Made by a program: the position numbers and the translations under genes
From: a virus
Taxonomy: Duplodnaviria > Heunggongvirae > Uroviricota > Caudoviricetes
Strand: one strand, 5' to 3'
Virus record (IMG/VR): IMGVR_UViG_3300028965_000026
Length of the DNA: 26,162 nucleotides
The notes under the pieces: generated by a model
What the model saw: only the letters and a program-made list of their open reading frames with translations
What the model was told of the DNA's origin: nothing
Database searches by the model: none
In this document: piece after piece, positions 16,368 to 21,424 of the stretch
Position numbering within the stretch: position 1 is the first letter of the stretch
Layout: each line of letters begins with the position of its first letter

Positions 16368-16950
16368 CAAAATCAGAAGCATACTTCCTGTCAGCGCCAG
16401 CCGGGCAGAGCGGGTGGTGGACAGTACCGCCGGTGATATGCTGGCGGAAATCGCAGTATGTCTGATCCGCTATGTCAAAAATCCCGATTTATGTCCTGCT
16501 GAATTGCTGCCATGGCTGGCCTGGGAAATGGCGGTGGACACCTGGAATGAACACTGGACGGAGGCGGAAAAAAGGTCTGCGATAAAACGTGCTGCATACA
16601 TCCACCGCCACAGAGGGACTAAAGCGGCGCTGATGGCATCGCTGGCTGACAGTCCCTTCCGGTCGCAGATTGTTGAGTGGTATGAGCAGACCCCACCCGG
16701 GGAGCCGTATACCTTCCGTCTGAACGTGGAGCAGAAAGATTTACCGGTGCTGATGAATGATCATCAGGATCTGAAGCATGCGGTGCTCCGTGCCAAAAAT
16801 CTGCGCAGCTGGTTCAGTATTCACGTTTACGGGAACAGCACAGGGCGTGGATTTGGTTACGGCTATGTGATGGCGACAGAAAAAATCAGAAGTACCGGTG
16901 TGACAACAAAGACAGTGCCCACAGGCGGGCAGAGTGAGGCAGGTGTATGA
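16360..16950 (+). CDS. I: Baseplate/tail protein (P2 gpI-like)
   Basis: 196 aa. NPDLCPAELLPWLAWEMAVDTWNEHWTEAEKRSAIKRA matches P2 I (NPDTCPANLLPWLAWAFSVDRWDEKWPEATKRAVIRDA). Confidence 0.9.
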   Translation: MNDKIRSILPVSASRAERVVDSTAGDMLAEIAVCLIRYVKNPDLCPAELLPWLAWEMAVDTWNEHWTEAEKRSAIKRAAYIHRHRGTKAALMASLADSPFRSQIVEWYEQTPPGEPYTFRLNVEQKDLPVLMNDHQDLKHAVLRAKNLRSWFSIHVYGNSTGRGFGYGYVMATEKIRSTGVTTKTVPTGGQSEAGV

Positions 16951-18332
16951 ATGGACTGATTCTGACAACGTCCGGCGCTGCAGAAATTGAAGCAGCATAT
17001 CAGAACGGGCAAACCGTGACCGTCCGGCATGTTCTGCTTGGTGACGGGGGCGGGCGGGCATTGCCATCCACGCCGGATGAAATGGCAGCAATGACATCGT
17101 TGTACGGCGAATTCGGGCAGGAACCCTTTTCCGACGGTGCGGTGGAGGAGGGCTTCATCAGCGGGGATATTGTGATTGACTGTAAATCATACCCCGGTAA
17201 AACCCTTCGTGAACTGGGGATGATCAGCGACAGAGGTACGCTTATCGCGTACGGACGTTATCCCGACACCTTTTTACCAGACCAGACGGACTCTGTTATC
17301 AAGGAAGTTATTCTGACGCTGGTTCTTGGGCTGACGCACGCACAAAACGTGGTGCTGGAAGTTGATCCGGACAGGGCCATTATTACTCAGGAAATCGGAG
17401 ACAGACGCTATCTGCAACGAAAAAAGAATCTTTCGGATGTGGAAGACAAGGATGAGGCTGTTGAAAACCTCGGATTAAAACCCACGGTGGACAAGGCAAA
17501 AAATGCCGTTCAGCGTGATGGTGACACCATGACCGGGGAACTGAAAATCCGTGGTGTTAATGCGCTGAGGATTTTCAACGAAGCCTTTGGTCTGATTTTT
17601 CGTCGTTCGGAAGAGTGCCTGCACCTTATCCCTACCAGTGAAGGTCAGGGCGAGAATGGCGATATTGGTCCACTTCGACCGTTCACTATTAATCTGCGGA
17701 CGGGTGAAATATCCATGTCGCATAAAGTGTCTGTTGGCGGCGGTTCTCAGGTCAATGGTGCGCTGGGTATCGGCGTTCAGAACGCGCTGGGCGGAAACTC
17801 AATTGCTTTCGGGGATAACGATACAGGTATAAAACAAAACGGCGACGGCATTCTGGATGTTTATGCGAATGGACAGCATGTATTTCGTTTCCAGAATGGT
17901 GTGGCGATAGCGTTAAAAAATATTCAGGCCGGAAATGCTAAAAAATTCACGTTATCCAGCGCCAACAACTCCACGAAAAACGCAACGTTTAATTTATGGG
18001 GTAATTCATCCCGACCTGTAGTTGCAGAGCTTGGTGATGATTCCGGCTGGCATTTTTACAGTCAGAGGAATACGGATAACAGTATAACGTTCGCTGTAAA
18101 CGGGCAGATGGTTCCATCAAACTACGGAAACTTTGATGCCCGCTATCAGACCAAAACAGGCGGTGTACAGGATGTGCGTCTGGGCAGTGCCATTGGTATT
18201 GGGCGTGGCGGGAACGCACCATCAGGTCACCTTATCAGCGGTCTTGATGGTGGTGAAAGTATGGACTGGGCCAATGCCCGCCCGGTGCAGGTTCTGATTA
18301 ATGGCGTCTGGCGGAATGTAGCGAGTTTGTAA
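16947..18332 (+). CDS. H: Tail fibre protein (P2 gpH-like, C-terminal receptor-binding region conserved)
   Basis: 461 aa. C-terminal about 170 aa nearly collinear with P2 H as recalled (NALGGNSIAFGDNDTGIKQNGDGILDVYANGQHVFRFQNGVAIALKNIQAG ... FNLWGNSSRPVVAELGDDSGWHFYSQRNTDNSITFAVNGQM). Confidence 0.85.
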   Translation: MNGLILTTSGAAEIEAAYQNGQTVTVRHVLLGDGGGRALPSTPDEMAAMTSLYGEFGQEPFSDGAVEEGFISGDIVIDCKSYPGKTLRELGMISDRGTLIAYGRYPDTFLPDQTDSVIKEVILTLVLGLTHAQNVVLEVDPDRAIITQEIGDRRYLQRKKNLSDVEDKDEAVENLGLKPTVDKAKNAVQRDGDTMTGELKIRGVNALRIFNEAFGLIFRRSEECLHLIPTSEGQGENGDIGPLRPFTINLRTGEISMSHKVSVGGGSQVNGALGIGVQNALGGNSIAFGDNDTGIKQNGDGILDVYANGQHVFRFQNGVAIALKNIQAGNAKKFTLSSANNSTKNATFNLWGNSSRPVVAELGDDSGWHFYSQRNTDNSITFAVNGQMVPSNYGNFDARYQTKTGGVQDVRLGSAIGIGRGGNAPSGHLISGLDGGESMDWANARPVQVLINGVWRNVASL

Positions 18333-18334
18333 TT

Positions 18335-18880
18335 ATGATGCACTTAAAAAATCTTACGGTACAAAACCCTAAAACAATTGAGCAATACCAGCTGGCGCGA
18401 CAGCATAAATTTTTATTGTGGCTGCTCTCCGATGATGGTCAGGAATGGCACGAAGCCCAGGAAAAATTTCAGCCAGACACTCTGAAAGTTATTTATGTTG
18501 AAACTGGCGAAGTGGTCTGGGTTGGAAAAGACATCACCTCAATCTGCCCGGAAAATAAAAGTGTGATTGAGTTGCCGGATATTACCGCTAATCGTCGCAT
18601 TGAGGCGTCGGGATACTGGTTCTACCGCAATGATGAATTTGTTTTCGACTACAAACTTAAAGCGGAAGATGAGCGTGACGCACTGTTAAAACAGGTCAGT
18701 ATCATGACCAGCGAATGGGAAAAAGACCTGCTGCTGGGTTTAATCAGCGACGAAGACAGGGAAAAGCTCAAAGCGTACCGCATTTACGCGAAATCGCTGC
18801 AGGCGATGGATTTCAGCGCTATTACGGATAAGACCACTTACAACAATATTAGCTGGCCTGAGCAGCCACAAAATACCTGA
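18335..18880 (+). CDS. Tail fibre assembly chaperone (P2 gpG / Tfa family)
   Basis: 181 aa. MMHLKNLTVQNPKTIEQYQL ... FQPDTLKVIYVE ... VIELPDITANRR ... WPEQPQ matches P2 G as recalled (MQHLKNIKSGNPKTKEQYQL ... FQPDTIKIVYDE ... VVEVPDITSNRR ... WPEMPQ). Confidence 0.9.
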   Translation: MMHLKNLTVQNPKTIEQYQLARQHKFLLWLLSDDGQEWHEAQEKFQPDTLKVIYVETGEVVWVGKDITSICPENKSVIELPDITANRRIEASGYWFYRNDEFVFDYKLKAEDERDALLKQVSIMTSEWEKDLLLGLISDEDREKLKAYRIYAKSLQAMDFSAITDKTTYNNISWPEQPQNT

Positions 18881-18899
18881 AAAAGAAGTTAATCATCTG

Positions 18900-18921
18900 A
18901 CCGCCTGAGGGCGGTTTTTTT
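18900..18921 (+). terminator. Intrinsic terminator after the tail fibre assembly gene (ACCGCC-TGAG-GGCGGT, T6 tail)
   Basis: Perfect 6-bp stem with a tetraloop and six T residues. Confidence 0.65.
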
Positions 18922-18934
18922 ATGGGAGAAATGT

Positions 18935-20410
18935 ATGCCCGGATTACATGGTGTTGAAACCATTGAACTGACGACAGGCACGGTTGCCGTGCAGACCATC
19001 TCCACGGCAGTGATTGGCCTGGTGGGGACAGCGCCGGACGCCTCTGGTGGTGTGTGCGCTTCCGGCACAGCCGGCTCCTGGCTGCTGGGAACGGCGCTGG
19101 ATTTCACGGCGAAACAGGAAGGTCGGGCCGGTAATAAGATTTCGGTTGTTGCTGTGGCTGCCACAGAACAAAACGCGCAGACAGTGGCCTCGCTGAAAGG
19201 TACGACCCTGACGATAACACTGGGGACGGACGAACACAGCCAGGTTAACGCCACGGCGGACCGTGTGACTGAAGTGGTGAATGCGCTGGGGGATTCGCCT
19301 GTGACGGCGGCTGTCAGCACCTTGAATGCAGGAGACGCTGAAAATAAAGTGGTGTTGCCGTTCAGCCTGACGTTATCCGGCGGAGAAGATGAGGCGTTCC
19401 CGGTCAATACACCAGTGGTGGTGGCAGGGGCCATTACTCAGGCAGGGAAACTGGGCACAGCCGGAACATTATACCCGGCCCTGCGAGATATTTTTGACCA
19501 GACTGGTGCGCTGGTGATTGTGGTGCGCGCAGAAAGTAAAACAAAGACGAAAGAGGCCGAACAGCGTGCGGCGGTGATTCAGGCCATGGAGGCGCTGACA
19601 GAAAGTAAGGGCGTGACAGGCTATCAACCGCGCGTCCTCATTGCCACGGGGTACAGTGAGGATGATGGCGTGGCAAAGGCGCTGGAAACGTATGCCGTGA
19701 AGCTGCGGGCTGTGGCCTATATTGACTCGCCTTCAATGGCAACGCCGCAGGATGTGGTTCAGCGGCGCGCGTCATTTGGTGGGCGTGTGGAGCTGCTGCG
19801 TCCGCGCGTGTCAGTGACGGATGACAGCGGGCAAACGATATTTCGTCCATATTCGGCTCGTGCTGCCGGGCTGCGTGCCCGTATTGATTACGAAAAAGGG
19901 TGGTGGTGGTCCAAATCAAACCAGGACGTGATGAATATCACCGGTCTGGAGCAGGTGGATACGTTTATTCTCGGGGAGCAGAACTGCACGGCAAACCTGC
20001 TGAACATGGAAAATATCTCCACCATTATTCGCCATGACGGTTTTAAACACTGGGGTAACCGTCTGTGCACATCCCACAGTCAGTGGCGTTTTGAGCCGGT
20101 ACGCCGCACTGCAGATGTGATTGAGGACAGCATCCAGGAGGCCATGCTGCCTTATGTCGATCGCCCGCTTGATCGGGATGTGGCAGACGACATTCTTGGC
20201 AGCATTAATGCCTATATGCGTCAGCTTAAAAATCTGGGCGCGATCCACGGTGGCAGTGCATGGCTGAACGATGAACTGAACACTGCAGAAACCCTGGCGG
20301 CAGGGCAGTTGTATATCGATTATGACTTTGGGCCGAAGTCACCACTGGAGCGCCTGACACTGCGGGCAATGATTAACAATAAACTGGCGCTGGAGGAACT
20401 GACGGTATGA
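18935..20410 (+). CDS. Contractile tail sheath protein (P2 FI-like) with an extra N-proximal domain of about 110 aa
   Basis: 491 aa. N-terminus (HGVETIELTTGTVAVQTISTAVIGLVGTAPDA) and C-terminal two-thirds (WGNRLCTS..., ETLAAGQLYIDYDFGPKSPLERLTLRA) match P2 FI as recalled. About 95 aa longer than P2 FI. Confidence 0.9.
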   Translation: MPGLHGVETIELTTGTVAVQTISTAVIGLVGTAPDASGGVCASGTAGSWLLGTALDFTAKQEGRAGNKISVVAVAATEQNAQTVASLKGTTLTITLGTDEHSQVNATADRVTEVVNALGDSPVTAAVSTLNAGDAENKVVLPFSLTLSGGEDEAFPVNTPVVVAGAITQAGKLGTAGTLYPALRDIFDQTGALVIVVRAESKTKTKEAEQRAAVIQAMEALTESKGVTGYQPRVLIATGYSEDDGVAKALETYAVKLRAVAYIDSPSMATPQDVVQRRASFGGRVELLRPRVSVTDDSGQTIFRPYSARAAGLRARIDYEKGWWWSKSNQDVMNITGLEQVDTFILGEQNCTANLLNMENISTIIRHDGFKHWGNRLCTSHSQWRFEPVRRTADVIEDSIQEAMLPYVDRPLDRDVADDILGSINAYMRQLKNLGAIHGGSAWLNDELNTAETLAAGQLYIDYDFGPKSPLERLTLRAMINNKLALEELTV

Positions 20411-20925
20411 TGACGGGTGAAAAAAAACTGTTGCGCGCATGGGCGTTATTTCTTCCTGGCGGAATCCGCCTTCAGGGGGCACATGAATACACGCCACCTG
20501 CCATTAATATCACGACAGTGGATATCAAAACTGGCGCAATGGATGCACCGGTGGCAGTGGATGACGGCATGGAAGCGCTGACCTGTTCGTTTAAGATTTA
20601 TGGTTATGATGTTGCCATGCTTACGCTGCTGGGATTACAGGCCGGGCTTTATTCGCCGGAGATTGTTGTCCGCCAGGCTTACCAGGTGGGGAATGCGACC
20701 AGCGGGCAGGTGGAAACTCTGCAGGGGATGATCACCAGTATCACGCCGGATGCGCGTCCCGCAACGTCACAGGCAGAGGCTTCGGTGACGGTGGAAATGT
20801 CACTGAGTTATTACCGTCAGGCTGTTGACGGTGTGGAAACCATCTGCATTATTCCGGAGGAATTTGTGCGTCGTATTAACGGCGTTAATGTTCTGGCGGA
20901 TCTGAAAAAAATCATCCGGGTTTAA
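20407..20925 (+). CDS. Tail tube protein (P2 FII-like)
   Basis: 172 aa (same length as P2 FII), directly downstream of the sheath gene with overlapping start and stop. Confidence 0.8.
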   Translation: MMTGEKKLLRAWALFLPGGIRLQGAHEYTPPAINITTVDIKTGAMDAPVAVDDGMEALTCSFKIYGYDVAMLTLLGLQAGLYSPEIVVRQAYQVGNATSGQVETLQGMITSITPDARPATSQAEASVTVEMSLSYYRQAVDGVETICIIPEEFVRRINGVNVLADLKKIIRV

Positions 20926-20970: not shown

Positions 20971-20984
20971 TAAAGGAGATGCTT

Positions 20985-21287
20985 ATGTCGGAAAAAAACA
21001 GTGTTCCTGCCAGCAGCGTGGAAATTGTGTTATCCGTGCCGTATGTCACCGCATCAGGACAGACGATCACGCACGTCACTATGCGTGCGCCCACTGTCCG
21101 CGATCGTCTGTTGCATCGCCGGAGTAACAAACCGGAAGCAGAGGCTGATCTGGATATGATTGCCGGTCTGTGTGGGATGGACGCGGCAGACATGATGAAC
21201 ATGGAAGCGTGTGATTACCTGGCCCTGGAGCGTCAGTTTAATGTTTTTTTGCTGCCGCCGGTCCGGCGGAAGAAGAAAGCATCCTGA
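20985..21287 (+). CDS. Tail assembly chaperone (P2 gpE-like, tape-measure chaperone)
   Basis: AAGGAG at 20973-20978 with 6-nt spacing to ATG 20985. About 100-aa ORF immediately upstream of the tape measure gene. A T7 run sits near its 3' end. Confidence 0.75.
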   Translation: MSEKNSVPASSVEIVLSVPYVTASGQTITHVTMRAPTVRDRLLHRRSNKPEAEADLDMIAGLCGMDAADMMNMEACDYLALERQFNVFLLPPVRRKKKAS

Positions 21288-21424
21288 CAGCGATACGGCG
21301 TGCCGGTGCCTGGTTCGGGTGGTCTCCCGGAGATGTGATGGCGCTGCCGTATACGGATTTTGTGGCAATGATGCTGGCGGAGTCGGAAGAGAGGAAGCGA
21401 TGTTATGGCAACGGTGGGCGATAA
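20985..21424 (+). CDS. Predicted -1 frameshift fusion product (P2 E+E'-like extended chaperone); slip at 21245-21251
   Basis: Slippery heptamer T TTT TTG in the zero frame at 21245-21251. The -1 frame then stays open for 58 codons (FFAAAGPAEEESILTAIRRAGAWFGWSPGDVMALPYTDFVAMMLAESEERKRCYGNGGR) to TAA at 21422-21424, overlapping the tape measure start. Same layout as P2 E/E' and lambda G/GT. Confidence 0.5.
21244..21251 (+). other. Programmed -1 ribosomal frameshift slippery site (TTTTTTTG)
   Basis: Run of seven T then G near the 3' end of the chaperone gene, with an open -1 frame downstream. Confidence 0.55.

What the first reader, a model, noticed from the sequence alone, without database searches (positions are those of the whole stretch)
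19046..19390. Extra domain of about 110 aa inserted near the N-terminus of the tail sheath protein
The sheath protein is 491 aa against about 396 for P2 FI. The conserved N-terminal segment (...IGLVGTAPDASGG) and the segment resuming at EAFPVNTPVVVAG are nearly contiguous in P2 FI as recalled, but here they are separated by an Ala/Thr/Val/Gly-rich beta-type block (VCASGTAGSWLLGTALDFTAK ... TLTITLGTDEHSQVNATADRVTEVVNALGDSPVTAAVSTLNAGDAENKVVLPFSLTLSGG). Sheath insertion domains are surface-exposed and may decorate the tail or bind host surface glycans.
Basis: partly seen in the sequence, partly recalled or inferred. Interest (0 to 1): 0.4.

Follow-up and report, generated by a model that had tools for sequence, protein, structure and literature searches.

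The report
Extra outer domain in prophage tail sheath
The tail sheath protein of this E. coli prophage really does carry one extra, independently folding 113-residue domain; extra sheath domains are well known, but this one sits at an unusual point in the chain and belongs to an unannotated domain family also found in giant flagellins and other phage particle proteins.

Summary
The sheath ORF (18935..20410 +, 491 aa) aligns with P2 FI (396 aa) and the R2 pyocin sheath everywhere except one contiguous block, residues 37/38-150. The rest is an ordinary P2/pyocin-type sheath.

Two things are less ordinary:
- **Insertion site.** The domain splits the Gp18_domIII_N segment after its first strand. 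In T4, phiCD27/phiCD508 and KP12 the extra residues follow that segment.
- **Sequence family.** It does not reach Pfam's threshold for sheath domain II (PF17481). It belongs to a family no Pfam model captured, with 585 clusters in the exhaustive search. Members occur as 2-22 tandem copies in giant flagellins and phage virion proteins.

Function is inferred, not shown: a passive outer decoration of the sheath. Glycan binding is untested and has little support. Verdict: new variant of a known kind, of moderate interest.

The parts
18935..20410 (+). Tail sheath gene, 491 aa plus stop codon
   Evidence: ORF. PHROG 23 'tail sheath', E 2e-108. Pfam Phage_sheath_1 and Phage_sheath_1C. Annotated as a sheath CDS in a 100%-identical E. 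coli prophage.
18935..19045 (+). Residues 1-37: N-terminal arm (1-23, disordered in the monomer model) and the first core beta strand (26-32)
   Evidence: Aligns to P2 FI residues 6-37 at 50% identity. 82% mean identity to the query across homologues. pLDDT below 50 for residues 1-23 and strand E26-32 in the model.
19046..19384 (+). Residues 38-150: the inserted accessory domain. It is alpha/beta, carries a conserved G-x-x-G-N motif and ends in L-x-G-G
19367..19528 (+). Residues 145-198: the remainder of the Gp18_domIII_N segment (profile positions 8-57), which resumes directly after the insert
   Evidence: Pfam match of 23.9 bits, below the cut-off of 27. The same split is seen above the cut-off in the AcaML1 sheath and in P0235. 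The segment is contiguous in P2 FI, T4 gp18, phiCD27 gp13 and KP12.
19577..20059 (+). Residues 215-375: Phage_sheath_1 (subtilisin-like) core domain
   Evidence: Pfam E 2.3e-14. Foldseek best match is the R2 pyocin sheath 3j9q, E 9e-23.
20072..20368 (+). Residues 380-478: Phage_sheath_1C C-terminal domain
   Evidence: Pfam E 9.5e-17.
20407..20925 (+). Tail tube gene (context). Its start overlaps the sheath stop codon
   Evidence: ORF. Annotated 'phage major tail tube protein'.

Best explanation
**What it is (shown).** Residues 38-150 of the sheath protein are a genuine, independently folding accessory domain. It is spliced into a P2/R-pyocin-type sheath core between the first core strand (residues 26-32) and the next (160-164).

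**How it probably got there (inferred).** The domain belongs to a widespread family of about 100-residue alpha/beta modules. Its hallmark sequences are F-x-A-x-x-x-G-x-x-G-N-x-I-x-V, then L-x-I-x-L-x-x-D-x-x-G, a T-A-x-x-V-x-x-A-V-N helix, and a final L-x-G-G. The same module decorates other self-assembling polymers, namely the hypervariable middle of flagellins (up to 12 tandem copies) and several phage virion proteins. It is only distantly related to the canonical sheath domain II (PF17481). Because it occupies a different point in the chain from the extra residues of the three comparison sheaths, it was most likely acquired separately by this P2-like lineage rather than inherited.

**What it probably does (inferred).**
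- One copy per subunit projects from the outside of the tail.
- It takes no part in the N- and C-arm handshake or in tube binding, and moves as a rigid body during contraction.
- It acts as a non-catalytic outer layer that thickens and stabilises or shields the sheath.
- It tolerates rapid surface change.
For: **Single block inserted in a P2/pyocin-type core**
- One contiguous gap against P2 FI and the pyocin sheath.
- The core of the full-length model matches the R2 pyocin sheath best (Foldseek E 9e-23, 33% identity).

**A real folded domain**
- pLDDT 94.9 and pTM 0.88 when modelled alone; the same secondary-structure elements appear in the full-length model.

**Maintained by selection**
- 40 listed full-length E. 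coli matches are 1476 nt at 84-100% identity.
- The 9 alleles analysed have no indels and no internal stop codon.
- dN/dS is 0.19 in the insert, 0.04 in the core and 0.06 in the N-terminal segment.
- Sheaths of about 489 aa with the insert occur across Enterobacterales and in three phage genome records: Hafnia yong2, Citrobacter Chris1 and Acidithiobacillus AcaML1.

**Fold relatives are sheath proteins that carry extra outer domains**
- Domain III of gp55 is the distal, flexible one (PMC11948020).

**Non-canonical insertion site (Pfam order)**
- T4 gp18: domIII_N 24-82, then domain I, then domain II, then sheath_1.
- phiCD27 gp13: domIII_N 35-93, then domain II 95-204.
- KP12: domIII_N 28-84, then about 97 extra residues.
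- Here, and in yong2, AcaML1 and P0235: the insert first, then domIII_N from profile position 8-10 onward.

**Sequence family**
- The insert profile finds 585 clusters in 1.84 billion representatives. Many have 2-22 tandem copies.
- Members include proteins with Flagellin_N and Flagellin_C ends (P0140), proteins that sources name flagellin, and phage proteins hitting PHROGs for virion structural, sheath and head proteins.
- hhalign of the insert profile against flagellin P0140 gives probability 95.5%, E 1e-8. Against phiCD27 domain II it gives probability 0.1%.
Against: - No experiment and no assembled-tail model was available. Exposure on the outer surface and the absence of a role in contraction are inferred from homologous sheaths.
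- Weak PF17481 hits keep open a common origin with canonical domain II, for example by relocation. These are yong2 residues 38-81 (E 2e-5), P0224 over the full profile (E 0.07) and 5 of 35 family members.
- 'Decoration or stabilisation' is a default reading. The faster evolution of the insert could also reflect host-driven adaptation.
Confidence: 0.7

Rival explanations
1. The domain is an adhesin. It binds host surface polysaccharide (O-antigen, capsule) or mucus glycans weakly, holding the virion near cells as proposed for Ig-like domains on T4 Hoc.
For: - The exposed position is inferred from homologous sheaths.
- The insert diverges faster than the core: 43% mean identity to the query against 68-82%, and dN/dS about 5 times higher.
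- Evseev et al. list adsorption as one possible role of extra sheath domains (PMC9230969).
Against: - Only 3 aromatic residues in 113.
- Invariant positions are Gly, Asn and Leu, and nearly invariant ones Ala, Gly, Leu, Pro and Phe, with no conserved polar patch.
- Overall dN/dS is well below 1.
Confidence: 0.15
2. The domain is a docking platform for folded-back tail fibres or for baseplate wings. This would resemble the Pvc3 knob in Photorhabdus PVC and domain III of phiCD508 gp55, which contacts the triplex wing in the baseplate-proximal ring.
For: - The Pvc3 knob is proposed to dock retracted fibres (PMC12546770).
- Domain III of gp55 is ordered only where it touches the gp65a wing (PMC11948020).
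- The prophage has two fibre loci: 16947..18332, and a second gene after gpD.
Against: - The Pvc3 knob is built from different chain segments (residues 64-117 and 225-278).
- The same domain family is used in flagellins and head-associated proteins, where no fibres exist.
- No co-variation with the fibre genes was tested.
Confidence: 0.1
3. It is not an insertion. It is the ancestral sheath domain II, retained here and lost in P2, pyocins and their relatives.
For: - The structural similarity is to sheaths that carry domain II.
- There are weak PF17481 hits in relatives.
- The C-terminal L-x-G-G-x-D motif is shared with the end of gp55 domain II (sequences).
Against: - The domain lies about 50 residues upstream of the canonical position and interrupts domIII_N. 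That segment is contiguous in T4, phiCD27, KP12 and P2.
- The insert profile shows no sequence similarity to phiCD27 domain II but clear similarity to flagellin repeats.
Confidence: 0.08
4. It is an artefact or decaying sequence, such as a mis-assembly, a gene fusion or a non-functional filler.
For: None found.
Against: - A 100%-identical copy occurs in a complete genome.
- 74 genomes have a place covering at least 80% of the gene. The 9 alleles analysed are open, of equal length and under purifying selection.
- More than 100 homologue clusters and three phage genome records carry it.
- The fold is predicted with high confidence.
Confidence: 0.01

Closest known systems
P2 gpFI and the R2 pyocin sheath PA0622 (one-domain 'type 1' sheaths of Evseev et al. 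2022)
   Same: The core fold and sequence match: 37% identity to P2 FI over residues 146-483, and the best Foldseek and phmmer hit is 3j9q. The N-terminal arm is shared. The gene lies in a P2-like tail module: baseplate V/W/J/I, fibre, sheath, tube, E/E' chaperones, tape measure, U, X and D.
   Different: P2 FI and the pyocin sheath have nothing between the first core strand and the rest of domIII_N. This protein has a 113-residue domain there. Evseev et al. found that all Peduovirinae sheaths they modelled have one domain.
Two-domain sheaths with canonical domain II (PF17481): phiCD508 gp55 / phiCD27 gp13, DSY3957, Lin1278; also T4 gp18 domain II
   Different: The extra domain follows an intact domIII_N segment in those proteins, whereas here it interrupts that segment. 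The insert does not reach the PF17481 threshold. hhalign finds no similarity to phiCD27 domain II.
Hypervariable outer regions of flagellins, including giant flagellins
   Same: Significant sequence homology: hhalign probability 95.5%, E 1e-8 to P0140, which has Flagellin_N and Flagellin_C ends. There are 12 tandem copies in Bryobacteraceae proteins that their sources name flagellin. In both cases the domain is inserted between the assembly-competent ends of a helical polymer subunit.
Ig-like decoration domains on phage structural proteins (Fraser et al. 2006; T4 Hoc)
   Same: The concept is the same: a small, promiscuous, surface-displayed domain grafted onto several kinds of virion protein, here sheath, head-associated and other virion proteins.
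   Different: The fold is not Ig-like. It is alpha/beta with a 10-residue helix, and it has no hit to any Ig-family Pfam model.

Membership tests
Contractile tail sheath protein (PF04984 + PF17482; PHROG 23) | Subtilisin-like sheath domain and C-terminal sheath domain, both above the Pfam gathering score | tested here: met
   PF04984 scores 54.0 bits (cut-off 31.4) and PF17482 scores 61.4 bits (cut-off 26.9). PHROG 23, E 2e-108.
Contractile tail sheath protein (PF04984 + PF17482; PHROG 23) | Gene lies next to a tail tube gene inside a contractile-tail module | tested here: met
   The tube gene starts at 20407, overlapping the sheath stop codon. Baseplate, chaperone, tape-measure and gpD-like genes flank it.
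P2/R-pyocin-type sheath core | Closest solved structure and closest sequence relatives of the core are the pyocin and P2 sheaths | tested here: met
   3j9q: phmmer E 9e-53 and Foldseek E 9e-23. P2 FI: BLASTP E 8e-65.
One-domain ('type 1') sheath architecture of Peduovirinae | No compact domain besides the main domain; length 321-410 aa (PMC9230969) | tested here: not met
   The protein is 491 aa and has a separate 113-residue domain with pLDDT around 96.
Two-domain ('type 2') sheath architecture (Evseev et al. 2022) | Main conserved domain plus one additional compact domain | tested here: met
   Full-length and insert-only AF2 models. Definition taken.
Phage_sheath_domII (PF17481) | Sequence match above the gathering score (31.4 bits) | tested here: not met
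   No hit for the window protein at E <= 1. The best relative, yong2, scores 25.3 bits. 5 of 35 family members hit at E >= 0.001. hhalign against phiCD27 domain II gives probability 0.1%.
Phage_sheath_domII (PF17481) | Position in the chain: after the complete Gp18_domIII_N segment and before Phage_sheath_1 | tested here: not met
   Here the domain precedes domIII_N profile positions 8-57. T4 and phiCD27 show the canonical order, and KP12 has unassigned extra residues at the canonical position.
Phage_sheath_domII (PF17481) | Fold similarity to domain II of solved sheaths | tested here: inconclusive
Ig-like phage decoration domains (Big_2, I-set, FN3) | Ig-type beta sandwich, or a Pfam match to an Ig-like family | tested here: not met
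Carbohydrate-binding modules / lectins | Sequence or fold match to a known CBM or lectin; an aromatic binding platform | tested here: not met
Flagellin_IN motif (PF07196) | Pfam match | tested here: inconclusive
   2 of 35 members at E 0.12. Homology to flagellin central repeats is nevertheless significant by profile.

The most novel reading that the evidence does not exclude
The insert represents an undescribed, widely mobile 'polymer-surface display' domain family. No Pfam model captured it in the searches run here, and it was found in 585 clusters at 50% identity. Bacteria and phages graft it interchangeably onto flagellins (up to 12 or more tandem copies), sheaths and other virion proteins. 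On this reading, the P2-like lineage acquired it laterally at a new permissive site in the sheath fold. That would show the sheath has at least two independent insertion hotspots, and would link flagellar and phage-tail surface evolution.
Probability: 0.35. Interest if true: 0.55.

Novelty: new variant of a known kind. Interest (0 to 1): 0.35.

Why it matters
**Known background.** Extra sheath domains are well known, so the mere presence of one is not surprising.

**What is useful here.**
- P2/pyocin-type sheaths are treated as the minimal one-domain form, yet a large Enterobacterales prophage clade carries a decorated version. In E. coli it occurs in 77 of 5426 complete genomes.
- The domain sits at a second permissive site in the fold. 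This is directly relevant to engineering display sites on tailocins, PVC-like injection systems and phage tails.
- The domain family links phage virion surfaces with flagellin hypervariable regions, and Pfam does not capture it. A family definition would improve the annotation of hundreds of 'hypothetical' repeat proteins.

**What it does not do.** None of this answers a long-standing open question.

Tried and rejected
- **Pfam, PHROGs and PDB sequence searches with the insert alone.** These gave nothing significant, so sequence libraries could not name it.
- **tblastn of the insert against the phage collection.** It found only yong2 and Chris1.
- **hhalign of the full-length profile against the phiCD27 sheath.** It was uninformative (probability 0.5%), so Pfam domain order was used to compare insertion sites instead.
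- **MAFFT alignment with KP12.** It mis-aligned the N-terminal 200 columns by forcing KP12's domIII_N under our insert. I rejected it and replaced it with Pfam coordinates.
- **The AFDB50 fold library.** It was not available, so BFVD was used instead.
- **The 462-aa allele P0004.** I checked it as a possible natural insert deletion. Its 29-residue deletion is in the core, opposite query residues 220-248, not in the insert.
- **The antisense ORF 18889..19434 (181 aa) over the insert.** I considered it, but it is not annotated in the identical RefSeq prophage. I treat it as a by-product of Ala/Gly/Thr-rich coding sequence.
- **A literature search for yong2.** It gave no virion data.

Full report
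**1. The observation**

The ORF 18935..20410 (+) encodes a 491-aa protein. It is a contractile tail sheath:
- PHROG 23 'tail sheath', E 2e-108.
- Pfam Phage_sheath_1 at residues 215-375 and Phage_sheath_1C at 380-478, both above threshold.

BLASTP against P2 gpFI (396 aa, taken from AF063097) gives two collinear segments. Query 5-36 matches P2 6-37 at 50% identity. Query 146-483 matches P2 33-384 at 37%, E 8e-65. In a MAFFT alignment of the query, P2 FI and 118 homologues, the query residues opposite P2 gaps form one run, 37-150, plus a single residue at 245 (a three-sequence view is). The R2 pyocin sheath (3j9q) aligns query 149-487 to its residues 36-381, E 9e-53. The extra 95 residues of length are therefore one inserted block of about 113 residues, partly offset by a 13-residue loop that P2 has and this protein lacks.

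**2. Where the window comes from**

The sheath gene is 100% identical to part of a prophage in E. coli CEA224S. That prophage lies next to tRNA-Ser and the hya operon. It has lambda-like head genes and a P2-like tail module. The gene occurs in 77 of 5426 complete E. coli genomes. There is no close nucleotide match among deposited phages. By tblastn, three phage records carry full-length relatives with the insert: Hafnia phage yong2 (64% identity), Citrobacter phage Chris1 and Acidithiobacillus phage AcaML1 (37%). A search of 5.8 billion proteins lists 120 best hits, nearly all 484-542 aa, from many Enterobacterales genera. Of the 118 with at least 450 aa, all carry 108-165 residues at the insertion point.

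**3. Is it a real domain?**

- Modelled alone with a 35-sequence alignment (A2), the block folds with pLDDT 94.9 and pTM 0.88. It forms eight strands plus one 10-residue helix.
- In the full-length model (pLDDT 79.4) the same elements reappear shifted by 37 residues. The insert region is the best-predicted part of the protein, at about 96.
- The N-terminal 23 residues are disordered, as expected for the arm that becomes ordered only in the assembled handshake. That last point rests on established knowledge of sheath assembly.
- Nine E. coli alleles spanning 84-100% identity are all 1476 nt, with no indels and no internal stop codon.
- Nei-Gojobori dN/dS is 0.19 for the insert, 0.04 for the core and 0.06 for residues 1-37.

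The domain is therefore under purifying selection, but with about five times less constraint than the core. This agrees with 43% mean identity to the query in the insert against 68-82% elsewhere. An artefact or decaying filler is excluded.

**4. What fold is it?**

No Ig-like or carbohydrate-binding family is detected. The domain has 3 aromatic residues. Its invariant positions are G26, N30, L110 and G113, and the nearly invariant ones are Ala, Gly, Leu, Pro and Phe. The whole-protein model matches the R2 pyocin sheath best (Foldseek E 9e-23).

**5. An unusual insertion site**

Pfam gives the following order of segments.

| Protein | Order of segments |
|---|---|
| T4 gp18 | domIII_N 24-82, domain I 96-188, domain II 200-344, sheath_1 348-541 |
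| phiCD27 gp13 (near-identical to phiCD508 gp55, E 1e-299 over all 473 residues) | domIII_N 35-93, domain II 95-204, sheath_1 208-365 |
| P2 FI | domIII_N 26-86, sheath_1 113-279 |
| Klebsiella phage KP12 | intact domIII_N 28-84, about 97 extra residues, sheath_1 from 182 |
| Window protein | insert 38-150, then domIII_N 145-198 covering profile positions 8-57 only |
| yong2 | domIII_N 145-197, profile 9-58 |
| AcaML1 | domIII_N 149-202, profile 8-58, 35 bits, above cut-off |
| P0235 | domIII_N 152-200, profile 10-58 |

In this clade the extra domain splits domIII_N after its first strand. That is about 50 residues upstream of where T4, phiCD27 and KP12 carry their extra residues. The canonical site corresponds to query residues of about 200-210, which is only a short loop here. 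The Pvc3 knob of PVCs uses yet other segments, residues 64-117 and 225-278 (PMC12546770).

This favours an independent acquisition over retention of an ancestral domain II. I did not build a rooted phylogeny to prove it.

**6. Which sequence family?**

Pfam does not assign the insert:
- No hit for the window protein.
- PF17481 is reached only weakly by relatives: yong2 residues 38-81, E 2e-5, 25.3 bits against a cut-off of 31.4; P0224, E 0.07; 5 of 35 A2 members, best E 0.001.
- hhalign of the insert profile against phiCD27 domain II finds nothing (probability 0.1%).

An exhaustive hmmsearch of the A2 profile against 1.84 billion representatives finds 585 proteins at E <= 0.001 and 83 at E <= 1e-10. 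Only a handful of these are sheaths, all with the domain at about residues 38-155. Many of the rest carry 2-22 tandem copies. Those I examined fall into these groups:
- **Flagellins.** P0140 has Flagellin_N and Flagellin_C ends with three copies between them; hhalign to the insert profile gives probability 95.5%, E 1e-8. P0123 and P0272 (2181 and 2572 aa, 12 copies) come from Bryobacteraceae, and cluster members are named 'flagellin' by their sources. At least 11-12 of the 150 listed proteins have flagellin termini.
- **Phage proteins.** P0121 (1046 aa, 6 copies) lies in a contig that looks phage-derived, directly upstream of a gene that hits a minor-tail PHROG and, faintly, a tube family. It hits PHROG 8757, 'virion structural protein'. 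P0128 hits PHROG 8757 and a sheath PHROG. P0178 also hits a major-head PHROG. P0135 has two copies and a sub-threshold DUF3383 match.
- **Uncharacterised viral proteins.** BFVD Foldseek finds uncharacterised viral proteins, the best with TM-score 0.80.

The sequences share hallmark motifs: F-T-A-x-x-x-G-x-x-G-N-x-I-x-V, then I-x-V-x-L-A-T-D-x-x-G-x-I-T-S-T-A-x-x-V-x-x-A-I-N, and finally L-x-G-G.

**7. Mechanism**

*Shown:*
- It is a discrete folded domain.
- It is grafted into a loop of a P2/pyocin-type core.
- It is conserved in length and under purifying selection.
- It has homologues in flagellins and in phage virion proteins.

*Inferred from solved sheaths (PMC9230969, PMC11948020):*
- The domain projects from the outer face of the tail, one copy per subunit.
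- It is not part of the handshake or of the tube interface, and moves as a rigid body on contraction.

My best reading is a passive outer layer that thickens, stabilises or shields the sheath. None of these is excluded experimentally. The adhesin idea lacks any positive sequence or fold signal.

**8. Comparison with what is known, and novelty**

Multi-domain sheaths are textbook knowledge. Evseev et al. (2022) classify them as types 1-3 and report that all Peduovirinae sheaths they modelled have one domain. This protein is a type-2 sheath built on a P2/pyocin-type core. Its extra domain sits at a non-canonical site and comes from a family Pfam does not capture. I rate it a new variant of a known kind and of moderate interest. 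Its functional suggestion is only partly supported.

Noticed in passing
window 21244-21250 (within 20979..21287 and the downstream -1 frame to about 21421): There is a P2-type slippery heptamer T TTT TTG near the end of the tail-assembly chaperone ORF. The -1 frame stays open for 57 codons (AAAGPAEEESILTAIRRAG...), as for the P2 E/E' programmed frameshift. RefSeq annotates only the short product. The listed +1-frame ORF 21211..21459 is Cys/Arg-rich and looks spurious.
   Followed up: partly
window 18889..19434, minus strand: A 181-aa antisense ORF overlaps the insert-coding region. No CDS is annotated there in the identical RefSeq prophage. It is probably a by-product of the GC-rich (59%) Ala/Gly/Thr coding sequence.
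   Followed up: partly
Homologues P0034, P0040, P0042, P0059, P0073, P0082 and P0100; alignment A2 columns about 41-95: Some sheath homologues have a further 25-50-residue Pro/Glu/Ser/Ala-rich segment nested in the loop after the third strand of the insert, giving inserts of up to 165 aa. Another group (P0043, P0070, P0077, P0096; inserts of 127 aa) has a 12-residue addition after the helix. The insert itself therefore has permissive loops.
   Followed up: partly
P0123 / P0272-P0274 (Bryobacteraceae; 1552-2572 aa), P0134 (5977 aa), P0144 (3886 aa): Giant proteins carry 8-22 tandem copies of the same domain. Several are named flagellin by their sources. P0134 and P0144 are unannotated apart from the label 'beta strand repeat-containing protein'.
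   Followed up: partly
L004 10001-13141 (P0121) and neighbouring genes: A metagenomic contig that looks phage-derived encodes a 1046-aa protein with six copies of the domain. It has a conserved N-terminal helix and C-terminal segment shared with the 707-920-aa relatives P0124 and P0128. It sits just upstream of a gene that hits a minor-tail PHROG and, faintly, a tube family. Its role (sheath-like, or a capsid or tail decoration) is unresolved.
   Followed up: partly
window 16947..18880 and from about 24845 to the window end (L001 25911-28184): The prophage has two tail-fibre loci. One is a tail-collar fibre plus assembly chaperone between the baseplate genes and the sheath. The other is a 757-aa 'prophage tail fiber N-terminal domain' gene, plus a DUF4376 gene, after the gpD-like gene.
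   Followed up: no
window 21405..23057: The ORF in the position where a tape-measure gene is expected is only 550 aa and is annotated 'hypothetical protein'. If it is the tape measure, the tail would be shorter than that of P2. I did not verify this.
   Followed up: no
P0004 (E. coli, 462 aa) and hits H121/H122: One allele has a 29-residue deletion in the core, opposite query residues 220-248. Two genomes match only the first 76% of the gene. These are probably defective prophage copies.
   Followed up: partly
L018 (Klebsiella phage KP12 sheath), residues 85-181: This rV5-like sheath has a P2-like core and about 97 extra residues at the canonical site after domIII_N. No Pfam family is assigned to them. 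It is another unannotated sheath accessory domain.
   Followed up: no
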